From the NCBI RefSeq assembly GCF_003334815.1, contig NZ_QOWO01000001.1: DNA of 64,000 nucleotides; one strand, written 5' to 3'. The position numbers were made by a program, and so were the translations under genes. Source of the stretch: Escherichia coli. Lineage in GTDB: Bacteria; Pseudomonadota; Gammaproteobacteria; Enterobacterales; Enterobacteriaceae. Within the stretch, counting starts at the first letter, position 1. The number at the start of each line of letters is the position of its first letter. A model generated the notes under the pieces. It did not search any database. It was not told where the DNA came from and saw nothing but the letters and a program-made list of their open reading frames with translations. Positions 4,711 through 57,721 of this stretch are shown here, piece by piece.

Positions 4711-5838
4711 ATGGAATCGCTCTCAGAAGGAACCACAGCAGGCTACCAGCAAATCCACGACGGTATTATTCATCTGGTCGATAGCGCCCGGACGGAAACG
4801 GTACGTAGCGTTAACGCGTTAATGACCGCGACGTACCAGGAAATTGGCCGACGAATTGTCGAATTTGAACAAGGTGGCGAGGCCAGGGCTGCGTATGGTG
4901 CGCAGCTAATCAAGCGACTATCAAAGGATTTATGTCTAAGGTATAAGCGTGGGTTCTCTGCAAAAAACTTACGCCAAATGAGGCTTTTTTACCTCTTTTT
5001 TCAACATGTTGAAATTCGCCAGACAATGTCTGGCGAATTAACACCATTGGGAATTCCGCAGACACCGTCTGCAGAATTCCCATCGGCAAAGATTTGGCAG
5101 ACGCTGTCTGCCAAATCTTTCCCCTTGCCCAGGTCCACCTACGTCCGTTTACTTTCCGTTAAAAACGCTGACGCCCGCAGCTTTTATGAAAAAGAGACGC
5201 TCCGCTGTGGCTGGTCTGTTCGCCAGCTAGAGCGGCAAATTGCGACCCAGTTTTATGAGCGGACACTACTGTCACATGACAAATCAGCCATGCTGCAACA
5301 ACACGCTCCTGCCGAGACGCATATTCTTCCGCAACAGGCGATACGCGATCCCTTTGTGCTCGAATTTCTGGAATTGAAAGATGAATATTCAGAATCCGAT
5401 TTTGAGGAGGCGCTGATCAACCACCTGATGGATTTCATGCTGGAACTTGGGGATGATTTTGCCTTTGTTGGTCGGCAGCGAAGGTTACGCATTGATGACA
5501 ACTGGTTTCGTGTCGATCTGCTGTTTTTCCACCGCCGTTTACGCTGCCTGCTAATCGTCGATCTAAAAGTGGGCAAATTCAGCTATAGCGATGCCGGACA
5601 GATGAATATGTATCTCAACTACGCCAAAGAGCACTGGACGCTACCGGATGAAAATCCGCCCATCGGTCTGGTTCTCTGTGCAGAGAAAGGAGCCGGAGAA
5701 GCGCATTATGCTCTGGCAGGTTTGCCTAACACCGTTCTGGCAAGCGAATATAAGATGCAACTACCTGATGAGAAACGACTCGCAGATGAACTCGTTCGAA
5801 CACAGGCGGTGCTAGAGGAAGGCTATAGACGCCGTTAA
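4711..5838 (+). CDS. yhcG: DUF1016-family protein (PDDEXK nuclease-like YhcG)
   Basis: ORF track 375 aa; recognised as YhcG; contains three in-frame palindromic DNA units at 5013-5116. Confidence 0.85.
   Translation: MESLSEGTTAGYQQIHDGIIHLVDSARTETVRSVNALMTATYQEIGRRIVEFEQGGEARAAYGAQLIKRLSKDLCLRYKRGFSAKNLRQMRLFYLFFQHVEIRQTMSGELTPLGIPQTPSAEFPSAKIWQTLSAKSFPLPRSTYVRLLSVKNADARSFYEKETLRCGWSVRQLERQIATQFYERTLLSHDKSAMLQQHAPAETHILPQQAIRDPFVLEFLELKDEYSESDFEEALINHLMDFMLELGDDFAFVGRQRRLRIDDNWFRVDLLFFHRRLRCLLIVDLKVGKFSYSDAGQMNMYLNYAKEHWTLPDENPPIGLVLCAEKGAGEAHYALAGLPNTVLASEYKMQLPDEKRLADELVRTQAVLEEGYRRR
5013..5116. repeat. Three tandem palindromic units (core GCAGACA-N1-3-TGTCTGC) inside the yhcG coding sequence
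   Basis: Read directly: aattcgccagacaATGTCTGGCGAATT (5013-5039), gaattccgcagacaccgtctgcagaattc (5051-5079), tttggcagacgctgtctgccaaa (5094-5116). Confidence 0.8.
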
Positions 5839-5852
5839 TTTCAGCGGTTTCG

Positions 5853-5879
5853 AATTCTGCAGACAGTGTCTGCAGAATC
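5853..5879. terminator. Fourth copy of the same palindrome, just after the yhcG stop and before the nanQ stop; probable bidirectional hairpin
   Basis: attctgcagacagtgtctgcagaat is a perfect 13-bp-arm palindrome between convergent genes. Confidence 0.5.
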
Positions 5880-5897
5880 TTTAAAACGAACTAAGTT

Positions 5898-7230
<1,333 letters not shown>

Positions 7231-7234
<4 letters not shown>

Positions 7235-7920
7235 AGCACCGCCTTTTTCATCGCTGTGTTGTACCACTGACAAATGTGCTCAAGACGCGTGATTGCAGAA
7301 CCGACCGTCACCGCCCACGCGCCGTGGCGCATCGCATCCGCCGCCTGAGCAGGCGTGTTGTAACGCCCTTCGGCAATCACCCGACATCCGGCGTCGCTCA
7401 ACGTTTTCACCAGCGCCAGATCCGGCTCTTCTGGCGTTTCAGGCGTGGTATAGCCAGAAAGCGTAGTGCCAATAATTTCGGCTCCCAGCTTTTGGCATGC
7501 CAGGCCGTCTTCCGGCGTTGAGCAGTCGGTCATCGCCAGTAAACCGTGATGGTGAATACGTGCCAGCAGCGTTTCAACAGGCACCGGACGCGGGCGGTCG
7601 GTGCCGTCAATGGCGATAATGTCCGCGCCCGCCTGCGCCAGCGCATCAACATCTTCAATATAGGCCGTGATGCGTACCGGAGAATCCTCCAGATCGCGTT
7701 TCACAATTCCAATAATCGGCACGCTCACCACCGCACGCGTGGCTTGCAGATTTGCCACACCTTCAATGCGAATGGCAACCGCGCCCGCCTGTTCTGCCGC
7801 TAATGCCATGGCGGCGACGATTTCGGGTTTATCGAGCGGGCTGTCCGGAACCGGCTGGCAGGAGACAATCAGGCCACCGTTAGCAGCGATTTTTTGATCC
7901 AGTTGTGCAAGTAACGACAT
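7231..7920 (-). CDS. nanE: N-acetylmannosamine-6-phosphate 2-epimerase
   Basis: ORF track 243 aa; canonical start [10 protein letters not shown] (ATG at 7920), giving 229 aa. Confidence 0.9.
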
Positions 7921-7967
7921 ACATCTTCCCTTAGCGAAAGGCCCGGTACATAGACCGGGCAACAGGA

Positions 7968-9458
7968 TTAACTTTTGGTTTTGACTAAATCGTTTTTGGC
8001 GCTGCCAAACGGCACGGCACCGCTGAATGGTTTACCGTCGATAGCGTCATGAGTACGCAACGCTTCCGGGCGCAACCAACGCTGAACGCGAGAAGGCATA
8101 TCCAGCCCAATCAGCAGGATCACCACGAACGTCAGACTGAACGAGAGCGATGCCAGCGCAGTACCCAGATCCAGACGTTGAGCGATCAACGCGCCGATGA
8201 TTGGGGCCAGTGCACCGCCCAATGCGCCAACGTTGTAGGTAAAGCCCAGGCCCGCTGCACGCTGGTCGGTATCGAAATAACCGCCAATCAGTTTTGGTAA
8301 GATCCCGGCGATCCCTTGTCCAAGCATTTGCTGGAAGAACAGTAACAGACCGAGCACCCAGACGTTTGCGCCGCCAATCGCAAATACCGGAATAATCAGC
8401 AGCTGCGAGGCCAGCAGGCTACAAACGTACGCTTTGCGGGTTCCCAGCCAGTCACCGAGGAAGCCACCTACGCAGCATCCCACCGCCGCGCCAAAGCCAC
8501 TAAAGAACAGCACATTGGCTACAGTATGCGGGTTATAAGCCAGATCGGTTTTCAGATACGTTGGCAGCAGCGCCTGAATCGGCCATGAGTAGAGGAAAGC
8601 AAACAACACGACCACCATCAGCATTACGCCCGTTGGCCAGCGTTTGCCTGTACTCTGCACCATAAAGCTGATAAAGATTGCGGCGCATAACAGCCCAAGA
8701 ACAGCGACGATCGCGGCATTTTGCAGGTTACCGGCGAAGCAGAACCACAGCGCAGTAGCCGCCGCCAGTGTCATTACGATATTGGCAATGCGATGTTCAC
8801 CACGGTAGAGAATATCCACCATTGTGCGTACTGGTGCTTTACCTGCGTGTTTCTCTTTCCAGTCTTCCGCTTCCGGGATGTTTTTACGCAGCCAGAGAGC
8901 AAAGATGATTGGCAAAATGCCGATAAAGAACAGCGCACGCCAGCCCCAGACCGGAACCACCAGGCTATAGACCTGAGCGGCAACGACGGCCCCCACAGAG
9001 AAGCCTGAAATCAAAAAACCACTGGCTTTGTTACGCAGATGTTTTGGCCAGCTTTCAATGACATAGGTGGCGCTGGAACCGTATTCACCCGCCATCCCCA
9101 TGCCGATGGCCAGACGAGCGATAAACATGGTGATGTAGCCTGGCGCAAAGCCGCAGGCCAGCGTCCCGGCCGAGAAGAGAACGATGCTGGTGACCATTGC
9201 CAGACGACGCCCGTAGCGGTCACCCATAGCGCCGAGCATCAGGCCGCCGAACCAGCGAGAGATAAAGGCTGCAGAGATCAGACTTGCCGCCTGCACCGTC
9301 GTCAGCCCGAATTCACCTTGTACTTCGGTGAGTACCAGGGCGATTAAAACGAAATCAAAACCGTCAAGCAGATATCCCAACCAGGCAGCGGAAAATGCGC
9401 GCCATTGTGCACGGTTGAGATGGCGATACCACGGGATATTCTGGGTTGTAGTACTCAT
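7968..9458 (-). CDS. nanT: Sialic acid transporter (MFS)
   Basis: ORF track 506 aa; canonical start [11 protein letters not shown] (ATG at 9458), giving 496 aa. Confidence 0.9.
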
Positions 9459-9566
9459 TGTGAGTCTCCCGCGGTGGGCGATGCCCACACGCTTTGGTAT
9501 GAAAATTGTAGGGTACAGATGCGTTTATTTCCCCTCACCCGGTAGGGGCGAGCGAGGGGAAACAAC

Positions 9567-10460
9567 TCACCCGCGCTCTTGCATCAACTGCTGGGCCAGC
9601 GCCTTCAGTTCTGGCAGATATTTTTCATCTACCGGTCCAAACGGTTTGCGGCACAGCGGCACAGAAACGACATCCATATAATGGAGGACAGTTTTCAGGC
9701 CGCGGAATACGCCCGTTTTGATCAGTAAATCAATGACTTTATTGCATTCAGTTTGCAGTTTCTGCGCGGTCTGGATATCGCCTTCTTTCAGCGCCTTAAC
9801 GATCCCCTGATAGCGCCAGCCCATGATGTTGTAGGTACTGCCGATACCACCATCAGCGCCCGCCAGCAGACCAGAGGCGAAGATTTCGTCGTAACCGTTA
9901 TAGAGCACAAGATCAGGATGTTCACGACGGATCTGCTCCATCTGATAGAGATCGCCAGAGGTCTGTTTCAGCGCACCTACGCCAGGCAATGTAACAAGTG
10001 TGTTGATCTGATCCAGGGTCAGTTTTACCCCACTCAGGGCTGGAATGTTGTACACCACCATCGGCAAACCATCCGCCGAATCAATAATTGCCCGATAGTG
10101 ATCGCAGTGTTCTTCAAAGCTGAAAGGATAGTAGAACGGCGTGACGGCGGAGACGGCATCGAAGCCATAACGTTTAGCCGATGCCGCAAGTTGTTGGCTT
10201 TCGGCGGTGCTGACGCAACCGACGTGGGCGATGAGTTTAATCTTACCTTTCGCCTCTTCGGCGACGATTTCCAGTACCTGTTCACGCTCGGAAAGGCTTT
10301 GTACAAAGGCCTCGCCGGTCGAACCACCCACGTATAAACCGTCGATGCCCTGCTGAATATTGAACTGAACCAGGCGACGCAGACTCGCTTTATCCAGTGC
10401 TTGTTGTTGGTCAAAAGGAGTCAGGAGTGCAGCCATTACGCCACGTAAATTCGTTGCCAT
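9567..10460 (-). CDS. nanA: N-acetylneuraminate lyase
   Basis: ORF track 297 aa; recognised NanA sequence. Confidence 0.95.
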
Positions 10461-10495
10461 AAATACCTCTGAAGTGATGCTTGTCTGATAAATGA

Positions 10496-10518
10496 TATAC
10501 CTTTATACCTGTTATACC
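10496..10518 (-). promoter_or_regulatory. NanR operator: three GGTATA hexamer repeats in the nanA promoter
   Basis: Plus strand reads TATACC at 10496-10501, 10504-10509 and 10513-10518 (GGTATA on the nanA strand); matches the published Nan box. Confidence 0.7.
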
Positions 10519-10581
10519 AGATCAATTAAGCAACACCCCATACAGAAAGCTTATAATGCGATCTGCTTCACTAAAGTGGCA

Positions 10582-11373
10582 TTATTTCTTTTTGTTGGTG
10601 GTCTGACCGAAAGCGTGCCAGGTAGCAGAGACGCTGTTGAGATGCGATTGCAACGCACGATCGGCTTCGTCAGGATCATGACGGCGGATCGCATCAACGA
10701 TCGCAATATGCTGTTGATAACTAACGTTGTTATGTTCGTGCAGTGCCTGATCGGTAACCGTTGGGCGTGCGGCAATAAGCCAGTCGAGCAGGGCAACGTG
10801 GATCGCCATGAAGATTGGGTTACCGGGGATCTCCGCCAGCACGCGGTGGAAATCAACGTCTGAACGAATGAATGCCGCGTTGTTATCCAGCGACTGACTG
10901 TTGATTTCCAGTGCTTTTGCCAGCAAATCGATTTGCTCATCGGTGGCATGTTCAGCCGCATAGCGCACCAGACTGGATTCAAAGAACAGACGTAATTGTT
11001 CGAAATGGGCAATCCCACCGGGATGAGAAAGGAAATCTTTCGCCATGCCGGAAAGCTCACCGATGATAGTGTCCGCAGAAGGACGCGAGACGCGAGCGCG
11101 TTCGCCGTTGTTTATTTGCACCAGACCTTTGCGTTTTAACGCTGCCAGCGCTTCACGCACCGAAGGACGCCCGACGTTAAAGAACGCCATCAGTTCGCGT
11201 TCAGACGGTAATTGTTCACCTTCTCCAAATTCACGACGGCGGATCATCTGTTCCAGCTCTTCTTCCACCATTTCGGAGAGTTTTTTACGCGCCAGCGGGC
11301 GGCTACGCAAGTTGCGACCAATTGCAGGTGAAGAATCTTCGGTTTGCGAATCAAATGCGTTCATAAGGCCCAT
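10582..11373 (-). CDS. nanR: GntR/FadR-family repressor of the sialic acid regulon
   Basis: ORF track 263 aa; recognised NanR sequence. Confidence 0.9.
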
Positions 11374-11752
11374 TCTGTAAGGTCAGTGTGATTAACATCA
11401 TCAGTGACATCCTATCACAGGATTGAAAGTAGGGGAAAATGGCAGGGTTTTCTCTTTGTGCCTCATCATTACCATAATTAACGGAATAATTAACTATTGC
11501 GAAAAATTAATGTAACGCAGATAAAAACATCCCGTTTGAATTATTTATAAGACTATTCACGAGCATTATGAATATTATGAATGTGTTCTTACAAAATAAT
11601 CATAAGCGCATATTTTTTAATGAAAAATCACCTCACCTACAATTAAAAACACGACATCCGCACCATAAATAGCCTTGCAAAAAATATAACATCGTTGTTT
11701 TCAATCTGCCGTTTATGGGATTGACCGTTTTCTTTTGACACGGAGTTCAACA

Positions 11753-41242: not shown

Positions 41243-42219
41243 CCATTTAGCAGGGAATAATAAGAGAGGGAACTCATTTTGAAATCATTATTCAATCGGT
41301 TAACGGGAAAAGCGGTTAGCCGGACAGCTTTCGTCGAACACCTTGGTCAGGAAGTTATACAACATCATCCAAACTGGAAAGTCATGATTTCGACTGACCA
41401 CAAATTGATGCGCATTGATACTCCACTAAACAGCTATTATTGATACGCCTCCGTCGCCTGTTAGGTTTATGGTGCTTTGCCTGGGCGACGCTACGCTTAG
41501 CCCCTTACTTATTTCTGGTACCATGGGGTGAATAATCTGATTTTGTTTGACTACAAATTAATCACTCGAACCTATTTAATGCTGAGCATTGTCAATCGGT
41601 TAATTTTGCGTGCTTTAGCATTCACATCTATCCAGACGATGCAGTGAAAATTGGGTAATCCCCAGCAACCGCTGCGTAATGTCGTCTATCTTGTCGCGAT
41701 CCTGGCATCCCTACATTATTTGTGGTCTGTGAAGATTATCTCATTGCAGCCCCTCATCTTCGCAGGGCTGGCTTTTCAGCTTTTCACCTTACGTTATAAG
41801 AAGTTCCGTCGATGATGGCGCTAATTTCGTGAATTGTGCGGCTTGTTGCAAATTACACGGTGTTGAAGGTTATTTACATGTTAGCTGTTGATTATCTTCC
41901 CTGATAAGACCAGTATTTAGCTGCCAATTGCTACGAAATCGTTATAATGTGCGACCTCGTCCTCCCTGACGCAGTTTTTGCGCTGCGGAAAAGGTGACAT
42001 TGGCGCAACGAAGGTATATTTTGTTTTTTGCCGGAGGATAGCAGCAGATCGCTGCACAATGTCCGTCAAGTCTAACATTGACACTCTGGGGCAAAATAGA
42101 CCGGCGTCCCGGCCTGCTGGAATTTATCGCTATGCATACAGCTGTCGGGGCATACGCTTTACAGACGGCGGTGAAACGCCTGTCACAATCACACTAAACA
42201 AAGAGTACGGAACCCACTC

Positions 42220-48054: not shown

Positions 48055-48351
48055 ATGTTCGAACAACGCGTAAATTCTGACGTACTGACCGTTTCTACCG
48101 TTAACTCTCAGGATCAGGTAACCCAAAAACCCCTGCGTGACTCGGTTAAACAGGCACTGAAGAACTATTTTGCTCAACTGAATGGTCAGGATGTGAATGA
48201 CCTCTATGAGCTGGTACTGGCTGAAGTAGAACAGCCCCTGTTGGACATGGTGATGCAATACACCCGTGGTAACCAGACCCGTGCTGCGCTGATGATGGGC
48301 ATCAACCGTGGTACGCTGCGTAAAAAATTGAAAAAATACGGCATGAACTAA
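48055..48351 (+). CDS. fis: Nucleoid-associated protein Fis
   Basis: ORF track 98 aa; exact Fis sequence ([15 protein letters not shown]...KKYGMN). Confidence 0.98.
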
Positions 48352-48428: not shown

Positions 48429-50702
48429 TTATGGTGTTTGCGCGCCATCTATCATCATGCTTCGCTGCCTTACTGCTTGTTGCTGTCGTAGTTGCTGTAT
48501 CACCTTCCGGGCTAATGCATCTTCATTCATACCAGGTTCTGCCTTCACGCTGATGTGGTACTGGTCGTTGCTATGCACCGTAGTGCCACCAGAGCGGTTG
48601 GCCAGTGCAGGTGACGGCAGGGCAGCACCAGAGGCAGTGGTTGCTGCTGGCTGCTGTACATCGTCGCGGAATGGTGCGGTAAAGAAATCTTTGGTTTTCT
48701 GCCACGCACCACCAGCAACATCAGACACGGCGTTTTTAAACTCCAGTGCCTTGTTGGTCAGGTTGCCAATGTTGTCAGAAACCCAAATGATCTTATCAAT
48801 CAGGAACGTGATCGGTGCGGTCACAAGCTCGATGCCAGCCGCCAGGGTCTTACCGAACGTCATCCCCATTTTACCGGCCTTATCCAGTTCCTCGCCGCTG
48901 TATTTGACCGGTTCGGTCAGTGACGTGAACCAGTTGAAAGCCGTCTTAACCGCAGCGCCCACGCCATCAATGACGGGCTTCAATGGCCCCATGCGCTCAT
49001 ACAGGCGATGCAGGGCATCGCTAAGCGGTTCCAGCCCGGATTTGATACCTTCACCCACGCCACCAAAAAAAGCCTTCACACCAGCCCAATGGCGGTAAAT
49101 CTGATAACCTGCCAGCGCCAGGCCAGCTACGGCAGCACCAACGCCAGTGGAAATGAACGCCGCACCGATGGCGCGCACGCCGGTAGCCACCGCAGGCAGG
49201 CCACGAGTGCTGGCCAGAACGGCGGATGCGTTCATGCGGGCAAACAGGCTGGACACGTTCAGCAATCCGCCTTTCAGGAACGTGAACGCAAAGCCAGCGG
49301 CGAACGTCGCCACACGCAGTGCCACCAGTGCACTGGAACCAATAACCACTGCTTTGGTCACGGTAGGGTATTCGCGCGCCAGTTCGGCAACCTTGCCGAT
49401 AACCGGGCCAACGGTAGCCAGAACGCCGTTGAATGCTGGCAGCAGCACTGTGCCGATCGTGACGCCCAGGTTAGACACACGGTTGTTGAAAATCTTAAGC
49501 TGCGCCGACGTTTTGGCGGTGGCTGCCTCATATTCAGCCTGCATAGAACCGGCATATTTGGTCTTGTCTTTGACCATATCCAGATTCTTTTGGTACGTAT
49601 CAAGCTGTGTCAGCATTGGTGCGATAGCGCCAATCGATTCCTTACCAAACAGTTGCGAAAGCGTTGCCGCCTGCATGTGTTTTGGCAGCTTGCTGATCTT
49701 GGACAGGATGACGCGGATTGTTTCATCGGCGTTCAGTTGCATTGATTTTGCAACCTGCTTGGATGTGAAGCCAAGCTGTTTAAACGCTTCACGCTGTGAC
49801 TTCGTGGCGGATGCGCCAGCGGTCAGGGATAGCAGCAGGTTTTTAATACCGGTGGCCGCAATCTCATTCTGCACGCCCATACCGCGCAGCGTTGCACCCA
49901 TCGCAGCGATAGAACCGGAAGCTGCACCAGCGACGCTGCCAAGTGGCCCGATGCGCTGCGTGATTTCCAGGATGTCTTTGGCTGATGCGGCGGTGTTGTT
50001 GCCCAGGTAGTTGATCTTGTCGGCCAGAACGTTCATCTGGTCCTGCGTCATCCCGAAGGCGGCGCGCATCTCTGCCATTGCCTGGCCTGCCTGGTCGGCG
50101 CTGACGTCAAAAGCCACACCCATTTTGATGGCCGATTCAGCAAACTTGGTTAGTTCGCTGGTGGCGATGCCTGATTGAGCACCAGCGGCAACAATCTTGC
50201 CGATTTCGTTGGCTGCCATCGGCATTTTGGTTGACATATCCTGGATAGCCTGGCCCATCTTAACCAGGCCGTCAGGGGTTTCGAAGTTGGCAACCTTGCG
50301 GATATCTGCCAGCGTATCTTCAAAATCCATAGCCTGTTTGATCGGTACAGCTACCGTTGCGCCAAGTGCGACAGTCCCCAGGATTCCTTCTTTGTAGCCT
50401 TGACGCTTCGCCAGGTTGCGTTCGCGGGCATCCTCCACGCGTTTCAGGCGTTCGGTGGCAGAACGAAGGCGTTCAACCTGCCCGACAACCGTTTGATAGC
50501 GGTCCTTCATGCGGGAGAATATCGCGCTATCCTGGCCATAACGCTTCATTGCTTCATTTAACTGGCGCTGTTCGCGCGACAGCTTAGAGATTGCGCTACC
50601 AATCTCGACGGTATTTTTCTTTACAGTTCCAAATGCACCACGAAGGCTGCCGGAAACGGCCCCACCAATCGTGATTGTTGCATTTAACTTCTTGTTGGCC
50701 AT
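48429..50702 (-). CDS. Phage tail tape measure protein (TP901-family core-like)
   Basis: ORF track 757 aa; N-terminal coiled coil, Ala/Gly-rich core (GNNTAASAKDILEITQRIGPLGSVAGAASGS...), hydrophobic C-terminal segments; called on recognised family features, not a search. Confidence 0.75.
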   Translation of the reverse strand: MANKKLNATITIGGAVSGSLRGAFGTVKKNTVEIGSAISKLSREQRQLNEAMKRYGQDSAIFSRMKDRYQTVVGQVERLRSATERLKRVEDARERNLAKRQGYKEGILGTVALGATVAVPIKQAMDFEDTLADIRKVANFETPDGLVKMGQAIQDMSTKMPMAANEIGKIVAAGAQSGIATSELTKFAESAIKMGVAFDVSADQAGQAMAEMRAAFGMTQDQMNVLADKINYLGNNTAASAKDILEITQRIGPLGSVAGAASGSIAAMGATLRGMGVQNEIAATGIKNLLLSLTAGASATKSQREAFKQLGFTSKQVAKSMQLNADETIRVILSKISKLPKHMQAATLSQLFGKESIGAIAPMLTQLDTYQKNLDMVKDKTKYAGSMQAEYEAATAKTSAQLKIFNNRVSNLGVTIGTVLLPAFNGVLATVGPVIGKVAELAREYPTVTKAVVIGSSALVALRVATFAAGFAFTFLKGGLLNVSSLFARMNASAVLASTRGLPAVATGVRAIGAAFISTGVGAAVAGLALAGYQIYRHWAGVKAFFGGVGEGIKSGLEPLSDALHRLYERMGPLKPVIDGVGAAVKTAFNWFTSLTEPVKYSGEELDKAGKMGMTFGKTLAAGIELVTAPITFLIDKIIWVSDNIGNLTNKALEFKNAVSDVAGGAWQKTKDFFTAPFRDDVQQPAATTASGAALPSPALANRSGGTTVHSNDQYHISVKAEPGMNEDALARKVIQQLRQQQAVRQRSMMIDGAQTP

Positions 50703-50723
50703 AATAATTGTGCTCTCAAGGAA

Positions 50724-50930
50724 TTAATTAAGTAAATTTTCTGCAAGGGTGTGTTCACCGATTGCCCGCAAGGCGGCAGCGGCCAGTTGCAGGGCGCATT
50801 CGGTGCGGTAGTCTCGCTGTTTCTGCATTTCCTCCGCTGTGTTGCACGCCAGAACTTTTGGCAGGACCATATCCACCAGTTCAGGCCAGGGGTTTGTTCC
50901 TTCCGGTTTTGTGTGAATACGGTCCAGCAT
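50724..50930 (-). CDS. Small hypothetical protein immediately upstream of the tape measure gene (possible tail assembly chaperone)
   Basis: ORF track 68 aa; same strand and tight spacing within the operon; no recognisable motif. Confidence 0.4.
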   Translation of the reverse strand: MLDRIHTKPEGTNPWPELVDMVLPKVLACNTAEEMQKQRDYRTECALQLAAAALRAIGEHTLAENLLN

Positions 50931-50939
50931 GGTGCCCCC

Positions 50940-51257
50940 TTATGCACTCCGTACCAGGATAGCGCCGCGCTTCACCGCCTGGCGTTTGGCCCGTTCACCG
51001 GAACTGATGCGGCTGGATGGTTGCCACTTCGTGCGTCCCAGGGCGGATGCGTGGCTTTCCGCTTCGTCACGCATGATGCGGCCCGCTTCATCGGTCATGT
51101 GTTCGAATGCGTTTAAACGGTTGCGAAGGCTTGCCAGCAGGTCGGCTGCTTCGTAGCTGATAGGGTTTTTCTCTGAAATGGTTTGGAAACGCTTTGTTTC
51201 GCTAAGGATCAAACGCGCTTCTTCTTTCATTGATTCGTACAGGTCATGTTTTTTCAT
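50940..51257 (-). CDS. Hypothetical protein (possible tail assembly chaperone); start uncertain
   Basis: ORF track 149 aa (50940..51389); preferred start at the internal MKKHDLYESMKEE (ATG at 51257, ~104 aa) because the upstream extension is low-complexity. Confidence 0.4.
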   Translation of the reverse strand: MKKHDLYESMKEEARLILSETKRFQTISEKNPISYEAADLLASLRNRLNAFEHMTDEAGRIMRDEAESHASALGRTKWQPSSRISSGERAKRQAVKRGAILVRSA

Positions 51258-51471
51258 AGTATTGGCCGCTAACAATAGTTGTTGATGATTAAGTGAGTGC
51301 GCGCTTTTAGGTGACAGGTGCGGCGCAACCGGTGTGGAATTAGTGGTGGTTTTGACCGTCCAGGATGACCACCAACCTGGTTCCAGCATCCATCGTCTGA
51401 GGAACGATGAAGGTTAAATTTGGCCGGTTATTTGGGGCACAGGGAACCGGTGAAACCTGTATTCTTGGCCA

Positions 51472-51636
51472 TTATTTGCCGTTCAGCCCGCTACTCAGAA
51501 ACTTTTCAATCACCTGGCTGCGTGAAGGGCGGATGCCTGTTCTGCGTTCCAGTTTGGCTTGCTCTCTTTCGACCTGGCGCACCAGGTCAGGGGCGAGGCG
51601 TACCGTTACGTGCTGGCGTGTTTCTTGTCGTTTCAT
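51472..51636 (-). CDS. Ribbon-helix-helix (CopG/Arc-like) DNA-binding protein, 54 aa; absent from the ORF track (below length cutoff)
   Basis: Hand-translated: MKRQETRQHVTVRLAPDLVRQVEREQAKLERRTGIRPSRSQVIEKFLSSGLNGK; beta-strand then two helices typical of RHH; starts 3 nt after the upstream gene stop. Confidence 0.55.
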   Translation of the reverse strand: MKRQETRQHVTVRLAPDLVRQVEREQAKLERRTGIRPSRSQVIEKFLSSGLNGK

Positions 51637-51639
51637 GGC

Positions 51640-51960
51640 TTAGTACCTGTTCATCCAGCTTTCGCGCTTCTGTTTCGGGCGCTGCTCGCGGTAGTGACTG
51701 CGCACCAGGGAAGCGAGGTAATTCACGGCGCGTTCAATCTGGTACTGCTTAAGCTCCGGGTAAGCCTTGCGAATCCATTTTTCAGCAGCGTCATCGCTGT
51801 AGATGAATCCTGACCAGCCAACCGGCTGCACTACGATGCGCGGTGTGTTTTCATCACCGTGGCGCACATACATGGCCACACCTTCGATAGCTGCCAGGAT
51901 TTCACCCGGCAGGGCAGCGCGCTCCGCTGCCGCTTTTTTGCTGCCCCACCACATGATCAA
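51640..51960 (-). CDS. Hypothetical protein, ~105 aa, translationally coupled to the downstream RHH gene
   Basis: ORF track 106 aa; TTG or ATG start overlapping the stop of the upstream 294-aa gene. Confidence 0.45.
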   Translation of the reverse strand: MIMWWGSKKAAAERAALPGEILAAIEGVAMYVRHGDENTPRIVVQPVGWSGFIYSDDAAEKWIRKAYPELKQYQIERAVNYLASLVRSHYREQRPKQKRESWMNRY

Positions 51961-52841
51961 GCCTTCCAGAACATAGTTGAGTCAGGCACCAGTGCGGATG
52001 CGTTCACCCACACAACGATTTCAACGGCACCATTCAGCACGCGGCGGGCGGTGACGCGGATTTCATCATCCAGGGCAACGGCTGCATTGCCGAAAGCGCC
52101 AATGATTGTGCTGGAAGTCTGGCCGCTGATTTCAGCGCGTACACCGTAGGCACGCAGAACGCCGTCTTGCAGTTCCAGGCCGGTGCAATCACCGCCAACA
52201 ATGGCTTTAACTTCATCAAAGCGCAGGTTTTTGGCTGCAATCTTCTGCGCCACTGCGGTGAATGACGGGCTGGCCAGCGTTTCCGCTGCGGTTTCCAGGT
52301 GGTTCAGCAGTACGAAATCAGCCAGGTCAGCAATTCCGCGTTCAATGGCGGTGTTGACCACTTCCAGCGTGGTATCGTCTGCGAAGTCGTGTTTCATCTG
52401 CTTGCGGCTAAGGGTGTAGCCCACGCCGTAAGCCGGTGCGTTGTTGTGGTTGAACGCTGATACCAGGTAAGGCAGGCCGCTCATGGTGATTTCTTCGCCG
52501 TCAGCCACTTTGGCGAACGCACCAGGGCGAACGACAACGAAGCGGTCAGCCACTTCGCGGCCAGTCGTTGCGCCGGTGTTGCCAGTCGGAGGCGTGGTCA
52601 TCGGGCCAGGGATGCGGATGATTTCAGCGCCTGCCTGTGCCACCAGTGAACGTTCAGCCAGAACAGCGTTGAAGGTGGTCTGCTTGCCGCCTTTCGGGGT
52701 CAGCACGTCATTCATGGACAGGTAGCGAACTGCTGCAGGTTCCACAGGGATGAATTGAGTAATGTCACCGTTGCCATCAGTGCGAATGTGGCCGCCCTGG
52801 TGGTTCAACGCGTCGTTGATAAGTTGAGATAAAACGTTCAT
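51957..52841 (-). CDS. Phage structural-like protein, 294 aa (major tail- or capsid-like; unassigned)
   Basis: ORF track 322 aa; start moved to MNVLSQLINDAL (ATG at 52841), which has a GGAG RBS 8 nt upstream; first gene of the minus-strand operon ending in the tape measure. Confidence 0.4.
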   Translation of the reverse strand: MNVLSQLINDALNHQGGHIRTDGNGDITQFIPVEPAAVRYLSMNDVLTPKGGKQTTFNAVLAERSLVAQAGAEIIRIPGPMTTPPTGNTGATTGREVADRFVVVRPGAFAKVADGEEITMSGLPYLVSAFNHNNAPAYGVGYTLSRKQMKHDFADDTTLEVVNTAIERGIADLADFVLLNHLETAAETLASPSFTAVAQKIAAKNLRFDEVKAIVGGDCTGLELQDGVLRAYGVRAEISGQTSSTIIGAFGNAAVALDDEIRVTARRVLNGAVEIVVWVNASALVPDSTMFWKA

Positions 52842-53229
52842 TAAAAATGCTCCGGTTGTTGTGCAATAAATCGTCTGGAATGACTTAAAGATATACAGTA
52901 ACCAGGCCGAACACAATAGCCACAATGTGAGCTTTTTAATGTAAAATCAGTAACTTATAACCATGAATACTTGCAAATAACCAGGCATAATCCGGCGTAA
53001 TCGATATTTACACATCTTTACAATTCAGCGTGTGTAAAACGTGTTCGCTTTATTTTGCAATCTCGCAAGTATGGTTCCAGTGCTTTGATAGGATTCACAT
53101 AAATGATTGATTTACTTGACGTAATCATAAAGTGAGTTTTGTAGGGGCACGCACAACGCGAATTACGCGGGACCAATGCCCCCGCAGGCTGTACCCCCCT
53201 CGGAAGTACCTTGACTTTTTTGGCAGCAG

Positions 53230-53540
53230 ATGGCGATGACACCTAATGTCACCATGACGGCGTTATGTTGGAAAGGTGTCATTAGGTGTCATAGCGGGAA
53301 ACACGCTGATTATTAAAGAAAAATACAAACAAGATAATGTAATGAATGACACCTGTGACACCATGACACCCATTTCTATAAAGTATAACGACCACTGTTA
53401 CATTATCACAGTGGTCGTTATTTTCTTTAAAAATGCTGTCATAGGTGTCATAGGTGTCATTAGTAATGTCGCAACCCTTGCGGGTTATGGCTTGAGAACA
53501 ATGACACCTGCCATGACACCTTATAAATTAATGACACCTA
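53230..53540. repeat. Iteron array: at least 10 perfect copies of the octamer ATGACACC/GGTGTCAT in both orientations, with a central 9-bp-arm palindrome; probable replication origin
   Basis: Perfect copies start at 53236, 53275, 53285, 53346, 53363, 53444, 53453, 53501, 53513 and 53531; variants at 53246, 53355 and 53435; palindrome gaccactgt-N9-acagtggtc at 53390-53416; located 3' of the primase gene. Confidence 0.7.
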
Positions 53541-53607
53541 GGCGTCACTTTGAAAATAAAAAAAGCCCCGGCATTCGCCAGGGTAATGGGCAACAACTGT
53601 TGTGATG

Positions 53608-53841: not shown

Positions 53842-55530
53842 TCAAAACTGGTGGTTAGGCCCATCAAAATAGCGATGGTCTTGCTGTCCAAAAACTTTCG
53901 GTGGCATTAGGTAAAAACGCCCTTTACTTGTTCTACGTGCATCCCTTCCTGTCAGTTTTCGCAGAATGTTACCGCACTGCGTTGCCTGGGATTTTGTTGG
54001 CCGATCCTGCCCAATAGACAACAGAACATCCGTTGCAGTCATTTCTATATATGCAGCCAGGCGATCACTGTTCCAATCAAAACGCGCCAATATCATTTCT
54101 TCAATCGGGTCAGTTTGCCCGTGCTGTTCGTTCACGACTTCCAGCATGGCTTCTTCATCACGGTCCAGCCACCAGCGTTCACCTGCTTCAAACCAGGAAA
54201 GAACTTCGGCCCATAATTGTTGTGTGTCTATGCCATGCTCGTAGTTAACGGCAGTTACAGGAATGGTCCACCAGCGCACGTTCCCGGTGTCATCCGCCAG
54301 GAAGTGTTTCGGGTTCACTGACGCAAAAAACACGGTGCGGCGCTGGTACTTCGATTCAAGCCGGTCATAAGGGCGGCGCAGGTCATCACGGTCCTGGCTG
54401 ATAAATGCTTTGAGCTTGGCAATATCCGCCTTGCGAAACGTCGCATCCAATTCGCCTAGCTCAACAAGCCAGTGACTAATTGCGCTGGCCACGCTGTCTT
54501 TATTGCCGGGGTCAATAGTTGCTCCCACCTTAACCAGGTTGCGATTGTCAGGGGGCAGAAGCGCTTTAAACCATGCTGTTTTACCCAGTGACTGCTCGCC
54601 CTGGAAAACCAGCACGCCTTTGGACCAGAAACCCGCTTCTAAGTAAGCAGCCGCCACGGCAGACAGCAACCAACGACGCACCAGCATGGCCAGCAGATCG
54701 CGACTGTAGTCATCTGGCGTGCTGATAGTATTCAGCAGGTCTGCAAATCGGCTTCGTCCATCCCATTCACGTTGATTGATGAAATCCCTGACAGGATTAT
54801 AAGTATTGCGCACAGCGATAGTTTTGATATGACCTTCAATATTACTCATTGGTAACCGGTTCAGTGCGGCGAGGCTTAAAATTTCACTCACAGCGCAGTT
54901 ATCGCGAGCATCTGAACCGCCACTAACGCCAGGTACTAAAACCTCAACGTCCTTGCTAATCTCATTATATTTTGCAGAAATGCTGTAGTTATCTAATAGA
55001 CGTTCAACATTAGGGCGTGTGTTTAAAGGCTGGCCATTGCTTCCAATATTTGGCCAGGTTGTCATTAATACAGGAGCCATATCGTGAATGTCTTTTACAG
55101 TTGCTGCGGCGGTTGCTCGTTCTTCTTTGCGCAGCATGCCCACCAGGCTTTCACCGCGTAGGGCGGCGTCTCTAAGCCTGTCCATGTTCCATTTTTCCGG
55201 TTCACGGTCAGTAATGCCTTTAAATAAACGGGCTTCCTTAACTCCAGCCACTGCCAGCTTGTCAGCAATAGTGCTGATTTGAAGTTGCTTAATATCACCA
55301 GCCAGATATACCCGCGCAGACCGGCGACCATCGTCGATAATTCGTAGATTATCTAAATCATCCAGTTGTCTTGGCCCAAGGTAGACAGGAGGAGTAGTGT
55401 CACCGGCAACTTGTTTACCCATTCCTTCTTCCCAGCCCTTGGCATGGCTCCAAGCGTCAGAACCGGCAAAAATAATTGCTTCCGTAAAAGGGTCTTTAGG
55501 TAATAGCTTAACGTTAGGCGCGTTTCTCAT
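53842..55530 (-). CDS. Satellite-type primase / replication initiator with P-loop NTPase domain
   Basis: ORF track 562 aa; Walker A motif GEQSLGKTAW; sits between alpA and the iterons as in P4 alpha / PICI pri-rep arrangements. Confidence 0.65.
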   Translation of the reverse strand: MRNAPNVKLLPKDPFTEAIIFAGSDAWSHAKGWEEGMGKQVAGDTTPPVYLGPRQLDDLDNLRIIDDGRRSARVYLAGDIKQLQISTIADKLAVAGVKEARLFKGITDREPEKWNMDRLRDAALRGESLVGMLRKEERATAAATVKDIHDMAPVLMTTWPNIGSNGQPLNTRPNVERLLDNYSISAKYNEISKDVEVLVPGVSGGSDARDNCAVSEILSLAALNRLPMSNIEGHIKTIAVRNTYNPVRDFINQREWDGRSRFADLLNTISTPDDYSRDLLAMLVRRWLLSAVAAAYLEAGFWSKGVLVFQGEQSLGKTAWFKALLPPDNRNLVKVGATIDPGNKDSVASAISHWLVELGELDATFRKADIAKLKAFISQDRDDLRRPYDRLESKYQRRTVFFASVNPKHFLADDTGNVRWWTIPVTAVNYEHGIDTQQLWAEVLSWFEAGERWWLDRDEEAMLEVVNEQHGQTDPIEEMILARFDWNSDRLAAYIEMTATDVLLSIGQDRPTKSQATQCGNILRKLTGRDARRTSKGRFYLMPPKVFGQQDHRYFDGPNHQF

Positions 55531-55803: not shown

Positions 55804-55983
55804 TCAGCGCTGTACTGGCTGGCGGCTTTCAAGCCACGCCATAACATCTTTGCGCCGCCAGGCCACGCGTTTTGGCCCTAATTTTATGCAATTAGGAAAC
55901 GTGCCAGCCTGGATATAGCGCCAGATAGTCATGCGGGATAATGTTGTTAGTGTTGTGACTTGCTTAGCAGTCAGTAATTCCAT
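55804..55983 (-). CDS. alpA: AlpA-family phage transcriptional regulator (MerR-like HTH), 59 aa; absent from the ORF track (below length cutoff)
   Basis: Hand-translated: MELLTAKQVTTLTTLSRMTIWRYIQAGTFPNCIKLGPKRVAWRRKDVMAWLESRQPVQR; classic AlpA signature; GAGGG RBS. Confidence 0.7.
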   Translation of the reverse strand: MELLTAKQVTTLTTLSRMTIWRYIQAGTFPNCIKLGPKRVAWRRKDVMAWLESRQPVQR

Positions 55984-56277: not shown

Positions 56278-57513
56278 TTAATTATCTGATTTTAAAAGGT
56301 TTATTTTTTCTAAATATTTTATCCATTTGTCCAAGGCTAACCGTTTTTCCGGGATGTACTGGCTACGGTTGTACACCGCCATCACTCCTGGCATTGAGTG
56401 GCCCAGCAACTGTTCAACCACATGCGGGGCTATCCCCAAGTTATTTAGACTGGTGGCAAAAGTGCGGCGCAGGTCATGCAACGTCCACGGCGTTGAATGC
56501 TCTAATCGTCTGTATAAGATACGCCCCCACTGGCTGACAGCTTCGGGTTTCTTCATTTCACCAAGCAGCATTCCGCTATCAAGATGATTTTGGCGTAGCT
56601 GTAAAATAAATGGCTGTATAGATTCAGGCACGGGTCTGATGATTTTCTCCCCACCCTTGCTATGTTCTCGCGGAACTGTCCAAATCCATTCTTTCACGTT
56701 CCATTCCGACCATGTCGAAAGACGAATTTCTTGTGTTCTTGCACCAAACACTATTAGCAATTTTAAAAGCGCGGTGTAGTAAGGTAGAAACGCATATTCG
56801 CTTTTTAGCGCATTCCAAAGGCCACTAAGTTCTTCAGAAGTTAAAACACGATCACGTTTTGCCTGCTTTCTTCCAACATCAGTAACTTTGATATCCTCCA
56901 GCGCATCACTGTAAACATCGTGCAGCCTGCGGTTGTGAATCAACGCCTGCTTGCAGTTACCTAATATGTAGCCGCTTGCTACCGGCGCGACTTTTTTGAT
57001 TCTGCTAAATGTCTCCATCCATCTTGCTTTAGAGCACTGTTCAAGTGGCAATTCGCCGATGAAAGGATAAATATGTCTTTCGAATTGGCGTCTATGCCTT
57101 TCAAAGTTGACCCGGTTTTCCGCCGCGTACTCATTAATCCAGCGTTCCAATGCTTCCCTGATAGTGACAGGTTTCATGGTTTTTGCTGACTCTTGGTCAA
57201 ACTGGTCTTTAGGATCTAGATTATGAGCAAGCCACCGTTTGCATTGGTCGCGTTTCACCCTCGCCTCAGCAAGAGATAAGGCAGGATACTTGCCCAGCAC
57301 TAGCGTCAAAGTATTGGCGCTTTTATGCTTATTCTTATAACGGAACAACCATTGGATGTTATTGGCCGGTCTCTTCTCGCCATCAAGGATTTTGCGCCTT
57401 GATGGTGTAACGCGAACAGAAAGGCTGCCACCGTCAGCAACATCAAAAGGTTTTTCGATGACTTTGCGGGTTAACGCACGCAATTGAACATCTGAGAGTT
57501 TATTTTCGGCCAT
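56278..57513 (-). CDS. int: Tyrosine recombinase, P4-type integrase family
   Basis: ORF track 435 aa; start taken at MAENKLSDVQLRAL (ATG at 57513, 411 aa); P4-integrase-like N-terminus (DGGSLSVRVTPSRRK) and C-terminal catalytic motifs (HDLRRTF...LGHS...VYNR...Y). Confidence 0.85.
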   Translation of the reverse strand: MAENKLSDVQLRALTRKVIEKPFDVADGGSLSVRVTPSRRKILDGEKRPANNIQWLFRYKNKHKSANTLTLVLGKYPALSLAEARVKRDQCKRWLAHNLDPKDQFDQESAKTMKPVTIREALERWINEYAAENRVNFERHRRQFERHIYPFIGELPLEQCSKARWMETFSRIKKVAPVASGYILGNCKQALIHNRRLHDVYSDALEDIKVTDVGRKQAKRDRVLTSEELSGLWNALKSEYAFLPYYTALLKLLIVFGARTQEIRLSTWSEWNVKEWIWTVPREHSKGGEKIIRPVPESIQPFILQLRQNHLDSGMLLGEMKKPEAVSQWGRILYRRLEHSTPWTLHDLRRTFATSLNNLGIAPHVVEQLLGHSMPGVMAVYNRSQYIPEKRLALDKWIKYLEKINLLKSDN

Positions 57514-57683
57514 AGAGTTAATGACAACCTTTTTGACAACTGTATGCAGGGAGTAACTGATAACTGATGATACAATGCGAGCCAATAAAAAATAAATATC
57601 TCTTTCCGCATCAATTATTTATGATGAATACAAATTATCTAGAGTGATAATAAATTACGTATAATGACTCTGTATTTTACAAT

Positions 57684-57693
57684 ACGGCATGAA
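57684..57693. repeat. Right copy of the 10-bp direct repeat ACGGCATGAA (candidate attR core)
   Basis: Exact match to 48364-48373; ~170 bp beyond the integrase start. Confidence 0.55.
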
Positions 57694-57721
57694 CTAATTC
57701 AGGTTAGCTAAATGCTTGATT

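What the first reader, a model, noticed from the sequence alone, without database searches (positions are those of the whole stretch)
51472..51960. Ribbon-helix-helix protein coupled to a 105-aa unknown inside the tape-measure operon
A 54-aa RHH protein (hand-translated; not in the ORF track) starts 3 nt after the stop of a ~105-aa ORF with no recognisable motifs. RHH proteins are typical antitoxins and repressors and are unusual inside structural operons. The pair could be a toxin-antitoxin or abortive-infection cassette carried as cargo, or a regulator of the tail module. The order (larger gene first) is atypical for ParDE-like pairs.
Basis: inference. Interest (0 to 1): 0.55.

Follow-up and report, generated by a model that had tools for sequence, protein, structure and literature searches.

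The report
Conserved satellite late-operon gene pair
The two small coupled genes are real, and one does fold as a ribbon-helix-helix DNA binder, but they look like fixed parts of the capsid/packaging operon of a 9-kb phage satellite in E. coli, not a toxin-antitoxin cassette; what they do has not been tested.

Summary

The interpretation does not hold. The genes lie in a 9.35-kb satellite of the published "fis PICI" type, bounded by the repeat TACGGCATGAACTAA. The island carries integrase, AlpA, a VapE primase/helicase, origin iterons and a copy of the cos ends of Jilinvirus myophages. Its late operon runs MCP-like gene, 104 aa, RHH, 105 aa, 68 aa, tape measure.

The 104-aa family has 229 cluster representatives and no Pfam, PHROG, PADLOC or fold match. 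It followed an MCP-like gene in all nine islands examined, from Escherichia to Pseudomonas and Xanthomonas. That includes islands with no tape measure and three with no RHH.

The RHH co-occurs with the next gene downstream. None of these proteins is found in the helper phages.

My best reading: the 104-aa protein is a satellite-specific partner of the MCP-like protein. The RHH is a DNA-binding factor acting on the satellite's cos/late-operon DNA, in regulation or packaging choice. Toxin-antitoxin cargo is unlikely.

The parts
48337..48351 (+). att repeat at the 3' end of fis (TACGGCATGAACTAA); one boundary of the island
   Evidence: Exact match. It is the published fis-PICI identity block (PMC10111431).
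48429..50702 (-). Tape-measure protein, 757 aa; last gene of the late operon
   Evidence: PHROG 28, E 2.7e-129; PF10145 in island relatives. 59% identical to the tape-measure proteins of Jilinvirus phages ECOO78, ep3 and Bas97.
50724..50930 (-). 68-aa satellite-specific protein, here called the 'fifth' family
   Evidence: No family hit. Homologues sit at the same position in Pseudomonas L012 and in L018.
50940..51257 (-). 105-aa satellite-specific protein, here called the 'third' family. RefSeq calls it 149 aa, starting at 51389. It co-occurs with the RHH gene.
   Evidence: No Pfam, PHROG, NCBIfam or PADLOC hit. A profile finds it only in islands that also have the RHH.
51258..51471 (.). Intergenic region after the RHH gene. 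It contains the inverted repeat TTTGGCCGGTT/AACCGGTGAAA (51419-51455) and a second hairpin.
   Evidence: The CCGG-containing arms recur in E. coli island L002 and in L018. No function has been tested.
51472..51636 (-). 54-aa ribbon-helix-helix protein
51640..51954 (-). 104-aa protein of an unnamed family (229 cluster representatives). It is always the gene directly after the MCP-like gene. Conserved C-terminal R-x-x-W-[VM]-x-x-[WYF].
   Evidence: dN/dS 0.11. No Pfam hit in 79 members. No fold match.
51957..52841 (-). 294-aa MCP-like protein; first gene of the late operon
   Evidence: A 57%-identical relative is named 'Phage major capsid protein' by UniRef, and relatives are fused to a PF04586 prohead protease. 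That protease part matches the Jilinvirus protease-MCP fusion at E 2e-41. The C-terminal ~65 residues align end to end with helper MCPs at E 0.0014-0.0029. One relative has a faint PF25209 hit. The fold itself was not predicted here.
53148..53219 (.). cos site: a copy of the joined genome ends of Jilinvirus ECOO78
   Evidence: Window 53148-53182 matches ECOO78 41255-41289 at 97%. Window 53170-53219 matches ECOO78 1-51 at 92-95%. The core is present in E. coli islands L002-L007.
53233..53545 (.). Replication-origin iterons (AGGTGTCAT/ATGACACCT, at least 9 copies in both orientations)
   Evidence: The position just downstream of the primase/helicase module matches the published PICI layout (PMC6092414).
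53842..55530 (-). VapE-domain primase/helicase, 562 aa
   Evidence: 79% nucleotide identity to the ECOO78 primase over 54061-54687.
55804..55983 (-). AlpA-type helix-turn-helix regulator, 59 aa
   Evidence: RefSeq annotation converted from L001 coordinates; PF05930 in relatives.
56278..57513 (-). Tyrosine integrase, 411 aa
57683..57697 (+). Second att repeat (TACGGCATGAACTAA); the other boundary of the island

Best explanation
The two ORFs are core genes of the late operon of a 9.35-kb phage satellite, a Gram-negative PICI of the fis-integrating type. Its helpers are cos-packaging Jilinvirus-like myophages. The operon starts about 300 bp from the satellite's copy of the helper cos site and opens with a private MCP-like gene.

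Shown: the 104-aa protein is encoded directly after that gene, with a 2-nt or overlapping junction, in all nine islands examined. The 54-aa protein is predicted to be an RHH dimer.

Inferred: the 104-aa protein is made together with the MCP-like protein and acts on it. It may serve as an assembly, size-determining or terminase-docking factor, perhaps through its conserved basic-plus-tryptophan C-terminus.

Inferred: the RHH binds specific sites in the satellite's own DNA, either the cos-to-promoter region or the repeat-bearing spacer after its gene. It probably works together with the 105-aa protein it co-occurs with. Its job would be to set late-operon expression, or to mark satellite DNA for the helper terminase.

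The pair is not an addiction or abortive-infection cassette.
For: Island identity: att repeats; integrase, AlpA, VapE, iterons and late zone; fis PICIs are described in PMC10111431.

Helper link: a 72-nt copy of the joined ECOO78 genome ends at 53148-53219, plus primase and tape-measure similarity to the same phage group.

Fixed position: the order MCP-like, ~100 aa, 53-68 aa recurs in E. coli, Serratia, Pseudomonas, L018 and L020. The junctions are tight and conserved.

The 104-aa family has 229 cluster representatives at 50% identity. It was found in all nine islands examined. The RHH and the 'third' family co-occur.

Both genes show purifying selection.

RHH fold.

Neither family is present in ECOO78, in the Bas97 tail region, or in the Salmonella helper prophage. 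They are satellite inventions, not captured helper genes.

Similarity to the helper stops 43 nt before the helper TerS start. So the side of cos where the small terminase subunit is expected to bind, by analogy with lambda cosB, differs in the satellite. That mirrors the situation that made Rpp necessary in EcCICFT073 (PMC6739421).
Against: No function was tested, and no DNA target for the RHH was identified. The candidate repeats are short and not conserved across genera.

The 104-aa model has only moderate confidence (pLDDT 67.7), so a missed fold match is possible.

The MCP assignment of the 294-aa protein rests on naming, on fusion to a protease and on a weak C-terminal alignment, not on a predicted fold.

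Capsid genes carried by the model Gram-negative PICI EcCICFT073 were not required for its transfer (PMC10111431; PMC6092414). The module may therefore not be essential here either.

The RHH dimer geometry was partly imposed by the fused construct I designed.

Three islands manage without the RHH.
Confidence: 0.6

Rival explanations
1. The pair is a type II toxin-antitoxin or abortive-infection cassette, with the 104-aa protein as toxin and the RHH as antitoxin, carried as cargo.
Against: The 104-aa family occurs without the RHH in L010, L013 and L019. It is tied to the MCP-like gene at a fixed operon position across genera. It has no PADLOC, Pfam or fold similarity to toxins. The RHH has no C-terminal toxin-binding extension. 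Real toxin-antitoxin-type cargo (SocA/Panacea) sits elsewhere in the Serratia island.
Confidence: 0.04
2. The RHH and the downstream 105-aa protein form a toxin-antitoxin-like pair in the canonical order, antitoxin first.
For: The two families co-occur strictly in the islands sampled. In Pseudomonas they are separated by 1 nt.
Against: The 105-aa family has no toxin or defence match. It holds a fixed late-operon position in every genus. In E. coli, Serratia and L018 a 111-214-nt spacer separates the two genes. The RHH lacks a neutralising tail.
Confidence: 0.05
3. The small proteins are diverged virion parts, such as head-tail adaptor, head-closure or decoration proteins. They would let capsids built from the satellite's MCP-like protein join helper tails.
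For: Their position between an MCP-like gene and tail genes (gpX in Pseudomonas, tape measure) copies the phage order capsid, connectors, tail. Capsid-forming PICIs are known to encode connectors (bioRxiv 10.1101/2022.09.08.507074, listed).
Against: There is no PHROG or Pfam hit for any of them. There is no structural match to solved connector proteins or to predicted viral structures. The RHH is a DNA-binding fold not known in connectors (my own knowledge). The island has no portal for connectors to sit on.
Confidence: 0.12
4. The RHH is an interference factor that represses helper late genes, as CapR does in the Vibrio satellite PLE. It would not act on satellite DNA.
For: Satellites are known to repress helper capsid genes (CapR, cited in PMC10111431). 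RHH proteins are typically repressors.
Against: No helper operator was identified. The protein sits in the late operon, so it would appear after helper late transcription has begun (inference).
Confidence: 0.15

Closest known systems
Rpp (RppA/B/C) of E. coli PICI EcCICFT073 (PMC6739421)
   Same: A satellite-encoded small DNA-binding protein in a cos-type Gram-negative PICI. In that PICI the nicking part of cos matches the helper, but the adjacent terminase-binding side differs. The same pattern is seen here.
   Different: Rpp is 144-153 aa with a winged helix-turn-helix and a coiled-coil dimer. Here the DNA binder is a 54-aa RHH with no sequence or fold relation to Rpp. No binding to the small terminase subunit has been tested. 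The helpers are Jilinvirus myophages, not lambda or phi80.
Ccm of SaPIbov5, and the MCP homologues of Gram-negative PICIs such as c1499 of EcCICFT073 and the one in PmCI172 (PMC8569155, PMC6092414)
   Same: A satellite carries its own homologue of the capsid protein, which in SaPIbov5 redirects capsid size.
   Different: Those systems have no described partner equivalent to the 104-aa protein. The 294-aa protein here has no detectable match in any deposited phage genome.
Relaxosome accessory RHH proteins TraY, TraM and ArtA
   Different: Sequence identity is only 13-14%. They belong to conjugation, not packaging. TraY is a natural tandem RHH, whereas this protein would have to dimerise.
Arc and Mnt repressors of phage P22
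   Different: Arc and Mnt control an immunity region, not a morphogenetic operon. hhalign gives no significant sequence relation.
Lambda gpFI (from my own knowledge; not tested here)
   Same: It is the gene directly after the major capsid gene. It is a small protein that helps the terminase-DNA complex dock on proheads. This is a positional analogue for the 104-aa protein.
   Different: No sequence or structural similarity was found. The analogy rests on gene position only.

Membership tests
Ribbon-helix-helix (Arc/MetJ/CopG) superfamily | Beta-alpha-alpha topology in about 45 residues | tested here: met
   AlphaFold2 gives strand 8-14, helix 16-33 and helix 39-52, with pLDDT about 88-92.
Ribbon-helix-helix (Arc/MetJ/CopG) superfamily | Intertwined dimer whose two N-terminal strands form an antiparallel ribbon | tested here: inconclusive
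Ribbon-helix-helix (Arc/MetJ/CopG) superfamily | Significant sequence match to an RHH family profile | tested here: not met
   No Pfam hit even at E 10. The best member hit is CB_ParB_C at E 0.05. PDB profile searches are negative. hhalign to CopG and Arc gives probability under 3%.
Ribbon-helix-helix (Arc/MetJ/CopG) superfamily | Sequence-specific DNA binding through the ribbon | not testable with these tools
   Needs EMSA, footprinting or ChIP.
Type II toxin-antitoxin module with an RHH antitoxin (ParDE, CcdAB, RelBE-like) | Partner protein belongs to a toxin fold or family | tested here: not met
Type II toxin-antitoxin module with an RHH antitoxin (ParDE, CcdAB, RelBE-like) | Toxin and antitoxin always occur together | tested here: not met
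   The 104-aa family is present without any RHH homologue in L010, L013 and L019.
Type II toxin-antitoxin module with an RHH antitoxin (ParDE, CcdAB, RelBE-like) | Antitoxin carries a C-terminal extension that wraps the toxin | tested here: not met
   Helix 2 ends at residue 52 of 54.
Type II toxin-antitoxin module with an RHH antitoxin (ParDE, CcdAB, RelBE-like) | Toxin arrests growth and the antitoxin rescues it | not testable with these tools
   Needs expression experiments.
Gram-negative PICI, fis-integrating subfamily (PMC10111431) | Integration at the 3' end of fis, flanked by the identity block TACGGCATGAACTAA | tested here: met
   Exact copies at 48337-48351 and 57683-57697. fis and yhdJ flank the island.
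Gram-negative PICI, fis-integrating subfamily (PMC10111431) | Ordered zones: inward-facing integrase plus AlpA, then replication (primase and origin), then late genes. About 10 kb, without a full virion gene set. | tested here: met
   The island is 9.35 kb and has no portal, terminase, sheath, tube or baseplate genes.
Gram-negative PICI, fis-integrating subfamily (PMC10111431) | Helper-dependent induction, packaging and transfer | not testable with these tools
   Indirect support only: a helper cos copy, and many stand-alone ~9-kb contigs in assemblies.
Rpp family (PMC6739421) | 144-153-aa protein with an N-terminal winged helix-turn-helix and a C-terminal coiled-coil dimer | tested here: not met
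   Sizes are 54 and 104 aa. The predicted folds differ. The PDB sequence and profile searches returned no Rpp chain; the RppC structures are reported as solved in PMC6739421.
Known phage head-tail connector or tail-chaperone families | Match to a PHROG or Pfam connector/chaperone family, or to a solved connector fold | tested here: not met
   There is also no similarity to the Bas97 chaperone-position gene.

The most novel reading that the evidence does not exclude
The block of MCP-like gene, 104-aa, RHH and 105-aa genes is an undescribed satellite strategy with two parts. First, the satellite builds its own, probably small, capsid shell from a private capsid protein, with the 104-aa protein as a dedicated assembly or docking factor. 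Second, the RHH, together with the 105-aa protein, binds next to the satellite's cos and redirects the Jilinvirus terminase to satellite DNA. That would be a functional analogue of Rpp built on an unrelated fold. The island's own tape-measure gene would then extend the takeover to tail assembly.
Probability: 0.2. Interest if true: 0.7.

Novelty: new variant of a known kind. Interest (0 to 1): 0.42.

Why it matters
Phage satellites shape gene transfer and phage resistance in enterobacteria. For Gram-negative PICIs, only one packaging-hijack protein (Rpp) has been characterised, and the carried capsid genes have no established role.

This locus gives a compact, genetically tractable system. It is a 9.35-kb island in E. 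coli. The candidate helpers are identifiable from the cos copy, and they include cultured phages such as Bas97, ECOO78 and ep3.

A conserved set of four satellite-only small proteins sits between a private capsid-like gene and a private tape-measure gene. The 104-aa family alone has 229 cluster representatives and no name in any library. Assigning it a function would annotate a whole satellite lineage.

For the scan itself, the lesson is narrower. A small RHH gene next to an unknown gene is not in itself evidence for a toxin-antitoxin pair.

Tried and rejected
- Sequence searches for both proteins gave nothing significant. These were PHROGs, NCBIfam, PADLOC, Pfam (single sequences and every member of three alignments), PDB sequences and PDB profiles. 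The ubiquitin 'hits' are an artefact of summing weak matches over polyubiquitin repeats.
- hhalign of the RHH alignment against CopG and Arc was in register but not significant.
- Rpp membership is rejected on size and fold.
- Tai and Tab tail-assembly blockers were looked at only through the paper outline and not pursued.
- The island's 105-aa protein was compared with the helper's chaperone-position gene; there is no similarity. A second comparison failed on coordinates.
- tblastn of the MCP-like protein against 50,697 phage records found no match. BLASTP against the helper MCP pieces was not significant. A PDB profile search with the MCP-like family was negative.
- An Rfam scan of the island found no RNA family.
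- Literature searches for a PICI with a tape measure, a PICI with an RHH, or a Jilinvirus satellite found no description of this module.
- I looked for an RHH operator among short repeats. None is conserved across genera, so I claim no site.

Full report
**What is at the coordinates**

All the relevant genes are on the minus strand. An ORF of 104 aa runs 51640-51954 from ATG, or 106 aa to 51960 from TTG. It ends in TAA and is followed after 3 nt (GCC) by the ATG of a 54-aa ORF, 51472-51636. The 104-aa ORF itself starts 2 nt after the stop of a 294-aa ORF, 51957-52841 (TGA-TC-ATG).

RefSeq annotates all three as hypothetical proteins in identical E. coli chromosomes. Against a diverged E. coli copy of the locus (L002), dN/dS is 0.11 for the 104-aa gene, 0.24 for the 54-aa gene and 0.13 for the 294-aa gene. 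The stop/2-3 nt/start or overlapping junctions recur in Serratia, Pseudomonas and two other islands.

**Is the small protein a ribbon-helix-helix protein?**

Sequence methods say nothing.
- Pfam gives no hit even at E 10.
- NCBIfam, PHROGs and PADLOC give no hit.
- PDB sequence and profile searches give no RHH hit. The polyubiquitin rows are summed repeats of a 2.8-bit match.
- hhalign against CopG and Arc is in register but not significant.

Structure prediction does support the fold. I fused two copies with a 15-residue linker for each of 11 homologues (alignment A5). AlphaFold2 gave strand 8-14, helix 16-33 and helix 39-52 in each half. pLDDT was about 88-92 in the structured blocks and pTM was 0.70.

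The fold call is therefore supported. One caveat applies: my construct imposed the two-copy arrangement. The protein ends two residues after helix 2, so it is a bare DNA-binding module.

**The larger protein**

It has no Pfam, NCBIfam, PHROG or PADLOC match. A first search found only 13 close relatives in Enterobacterales.

I then added syntenic homologues from Serratia, Pseudomonas and two distant islands (alignment A3). An exhaustive profile search with A3 found 229 cluster representatives at E 0.001 or better, nearly all 95-140 aa long.

The alignment of 79 of them shows near-invariant R31, R39, P66, L68 and W100. The consensus reads roughly LP..V..AIE.A...R....GPRV.V...G...F ... PEL...Q..RA..L..RV. 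It ends in a basic stretch and R-x-x-W-V-x-x-W at or near the C-terminus. None of the 79 members hits a Pfam family at E 0.001 or better.

**The surroundings: a phage satellite**

The locus is a 9.35-kb island between fis and yhdJ. It is bounded by exact copies of TACGGCATGAACTAA at 48337-48351 and 57683-57697. That is the published identity block of the 'fis PICIs', a subfamily of Gram-negative phage-inducible chromosomal islands counted in the thousands (PMC10111431). The 2.3-kb stretch 50700-53000 of the island's late region matches in 66 of 5,426 complete E. coli genomes, one copy each.

Read along the minus strand, the island carries:
- integrase, 56278-57513
- AlpA, 55804-55983
- a 93-aa gene
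- a VapE-domain primase/helicase, 53842-55530
- a 74-aa gene
- a block of AGGTGTCAT iterons, 53233-53545
- the late operon: 294 aa, 104 aa, 54 aa, 105 aa, 68 aa and a 757-aa tape-measure protein (PHROG 28, E 2.7e-129)

**The helper**

The tape measure is 59% identical to those of Jilinvirus-type myophages ECOO78, ECO1230-10, ep3 and Bas97 HeidiAbel. The VapE gene shares 75-80% nucleotide identity with their primase genes.

Window 53148-53219 is a copy of the joined ends of the linear ECOO78 genome. Similarity is 97% over the last 35 nt of the phage and 92-95% over its first 51 nt. This cos copy lies between the iterons and the start of the late operon. Its core is kept in the other E. coli islands. 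Visibly related elements occupy the same place in the Serratia, Pseudomonas, Xanthomonas and other islands (by inspection).

Similarity to the phage stops 43 nt before the phage's small-terminase start codon. By analogy with lambda cosB, that is the side where the small terminase subunit should bind, and it differs in the satellite. The same situation led to the discovery of Rpp in EcCICFT073 (PMC6739421).

**The first gene of the operon is capsid-like**

The 294-aa protein has no Pfam hit, no match in 50,697 phage records and no PDB profile hit. The capsid assignment rests on four indirect lines.
- A 57%-identical Serratia relative is named 'Phage major capsid protein' in UniRef.
- Three relatives are fused behind a PF04586 prohead protease. 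That protease part matches the protease end of the 681-aa Jilinvirus protease-capsid fusion at E 2e-41.
- The last ~65 residues align end to end with the C-termini of two helper capsid proteins, at E 0.0014-0.0029 in single comparisons.
- One relative has a faint PF25209 hit.

Capsid homologues are reported in 21 of 29 reference Gram-negative PICIs (PMC10111431). I call the protein MCP-like; its fold was not predicted here.

**Phyletic pattern, the main argument**

I examined islands found through homologues of the MCP-like and 104-aa proteins.
- E. coli L002-L007
- Serratia L016 and L017
- Pseudomonas L011 and L012
- Unidentified proteobacteria L013, L018 and L020
- Xanthomonas L019
- A Salmonella island embedded in a prophage, L009 and L010

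All have integrase and a primase/helicase, and most also have AlpA. In all nine distinct islands a member of the 104-aa family is the gene directly after the MCP-like gene. The Serratia islands have no tape measure and still keep the order MCP-like, 105 aa, 54 aa, 101 aa.

The RHH family is found in E. coli, Serratia, Pseudomonas, L018 and the decayed L020. It is absent from L010, L013 and L019. A profile of the next gene, the 105-aa 'third' family, finds it in the intact islands that have the RHH and in none of the islands that lack it. The decayed L020 has the RHH but no detected third-family gene. The 68-aa family is also shared with Pseudomonas and L018.

Neither the 104-aa nor the RHH family has a homologue in ECOO78, in the Bas97 region fetched, or in the Salmonella helper prophage.

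A toxin cannot be kept without its antitoxin in a third of the lineages. Cargo does not hold a fixed operon position from Escherichia to Xanthomonas. The RHH has no toxin-binding tail. In the Serratia island, a recognisable toxin-antitoxin-type cargo gene (SocA/Panacea) sits elsewhere, between the replication and late zones.

The toxin-antitoxin or abortive-infection reading is therefore unlikely; I give it about 0.04. The variant with the RHH as antitoxin to the downstream 105-aa protein fits the co-occurrence, but it has no other support (about 0.05). 'Regulator of the tail module' does not fit the tape-measure-less Serratia islands.

**Most likely mechanism**

Shown: the position, coupling, conservation and satellite specificity of both genes; the predicted RHH fold; the cos copy; and the link to the helper group.

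Inferred for the 104-aa protein: it is made together with the MCP-like protein and acts on it or on the shell it forms. It could be an assembly, size-determining or terminase-docking factor. Its conserved basic-plus-tryptophan C-terminus is the obvious candidate contact. Lambda gpFI, encoded directly after the capsid gene, is a positional analogue only (my own knowledge; no similarity was found).

Inferred for the RHH: it binds satellite DNA as a dimer, probably with the co-occurring 105-aa protein. It would either control late-operon expression or mark the satellite's cos-adjacent region for the helper terminase. The latter would be an Rpp-like job done by an unrelated fold. Its closest structural relatives, TraY and TraM, do the equivalent job next to a conjugative nick site.

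I could not identify its binding site. Candidates are short repeats upstream of the operon and a CCGG-armed inverted repeat at 51419-51455, just after its stop codon. None of them is conserved across genera.

My overall confidence that the pair is a functional part of the satellite's capsid/packaging/late-control module, and not a toxin-antitoxin cassette, is about 0.6 for the statement as written. Confidence that it is not a toxin-antitoxin pair is higher. Confidence in any specific molecular role is lower.

**Novelty**

The island type is published. Satellites with capsid homologues are published. RHH DNA binders are ordinary. What I could not find described is this module: a private MCP-like gene followed by four satellite-only small proteins, one of them an RHH, placed next to a Jilinvirus-type cos and, in E. 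coli and Pseudomonas, ending in a private tape measure. I rate it a new variant of a known kind, of moderate interest. The function is open, and the system is easy to test.

Noticed in passing
window 53148-53219: A 72-nt copy of the joined genome ends (cos) of Jilinvirus ECOO78, at 92-97% identity. It identifies the probable helper group. Similarity stops 43 nt before the helper's small-terminase start, so the presumed terminase-binding side differs in the satellite.
   Followed up: yes
window 53233-53545: At least nine copies of AGGTGTCAT/ATGACACCT in both orientations, plus long imperfect palindromes. This looks like the island's replication origin. RefSeq annotates a 105-aa plus-strand 'hypothetical protein' (about 53276-53593) over the repeats; it is probably not a gene.
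   Followed up: partly
window 48429-50702: A full-length tape-measure gene (757 aa, 59% identical to helper tape measures of about 780 aa) sits in a 9-kb satellite that has no other tail genes. Pseudomonas relatives carry gpX (PF05489) plus an 831-aa tape measure. Serratia relatives carry none and end in a protein that looks Mor-like by eye. Why a satellite keeps only the tape measure is unexplained.
   Followed up: partly
L009 and L010, about 4735-13816: In Salmonella, a related island is inserted inside the protease-capsid fusion gene of a Jilinvirus-like prophage (484-aa and 241-aa fragments on either side). It carries integrase, an AAA_25 protein, a 463-aa protease-MCP fusion, a 155-aa member of the 104-aa family and a 521-aa tape-measure-like protein. 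This fits the published 'helper-embedded PICI' class (PMC10111431).
   Followed up: partly
L016 5838-6949: The Serratia island carries a SocA/Panacea-domain gene plus a 188-aa partner between the primase and the late operon. This shows where accessory toxin-antitoxin-type cargo sits in this lineage.
   Followed up: no
window 51640-51954 compared with L002 9683-9997: Synonymous divergence of the 104-aa gene between two E. coli islands is dS 0.85. Its neighbours are far lower: MCP-like 0.15 and RHH 0.21. That suggests recombination or allele exchange at this one gene, possibly matching different helpers.
   Followed up: no
L002 about 8710-8740; L016 about 7850-7930; L012 about 9900-9950; also L018, L019, L013 upstream of the MCP-like gene: A motif resembling GAAA(C/T)CCC-N-AAG-N-GAA recurs just upstream of the MCP-like gene in most islands. 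The window's island has a different sequence there. It may be a late-promoter activator site, with mosaic promoter regions between islands.
   Followed up: no
one search hit table: Dozens of assemblies hold the MCP-like gene on contigs of 8.9-9.6 kb, about the island's own length. That suggests the island often assembles as a separate unit, either excised and circular or multicopy. One copy is labelled as lying on a 17-kb plasmid.
   Followed up: no
window 50940-51389: The start of the gene after the RHH is ambiguous. RefSeq aa from 51389. Gene callers on related islands aa from the equivalent of 51257. A 58-nt indel between E. coli islands falls in the disputed stretch, which favours the shorter gene.
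   Followed up: partly
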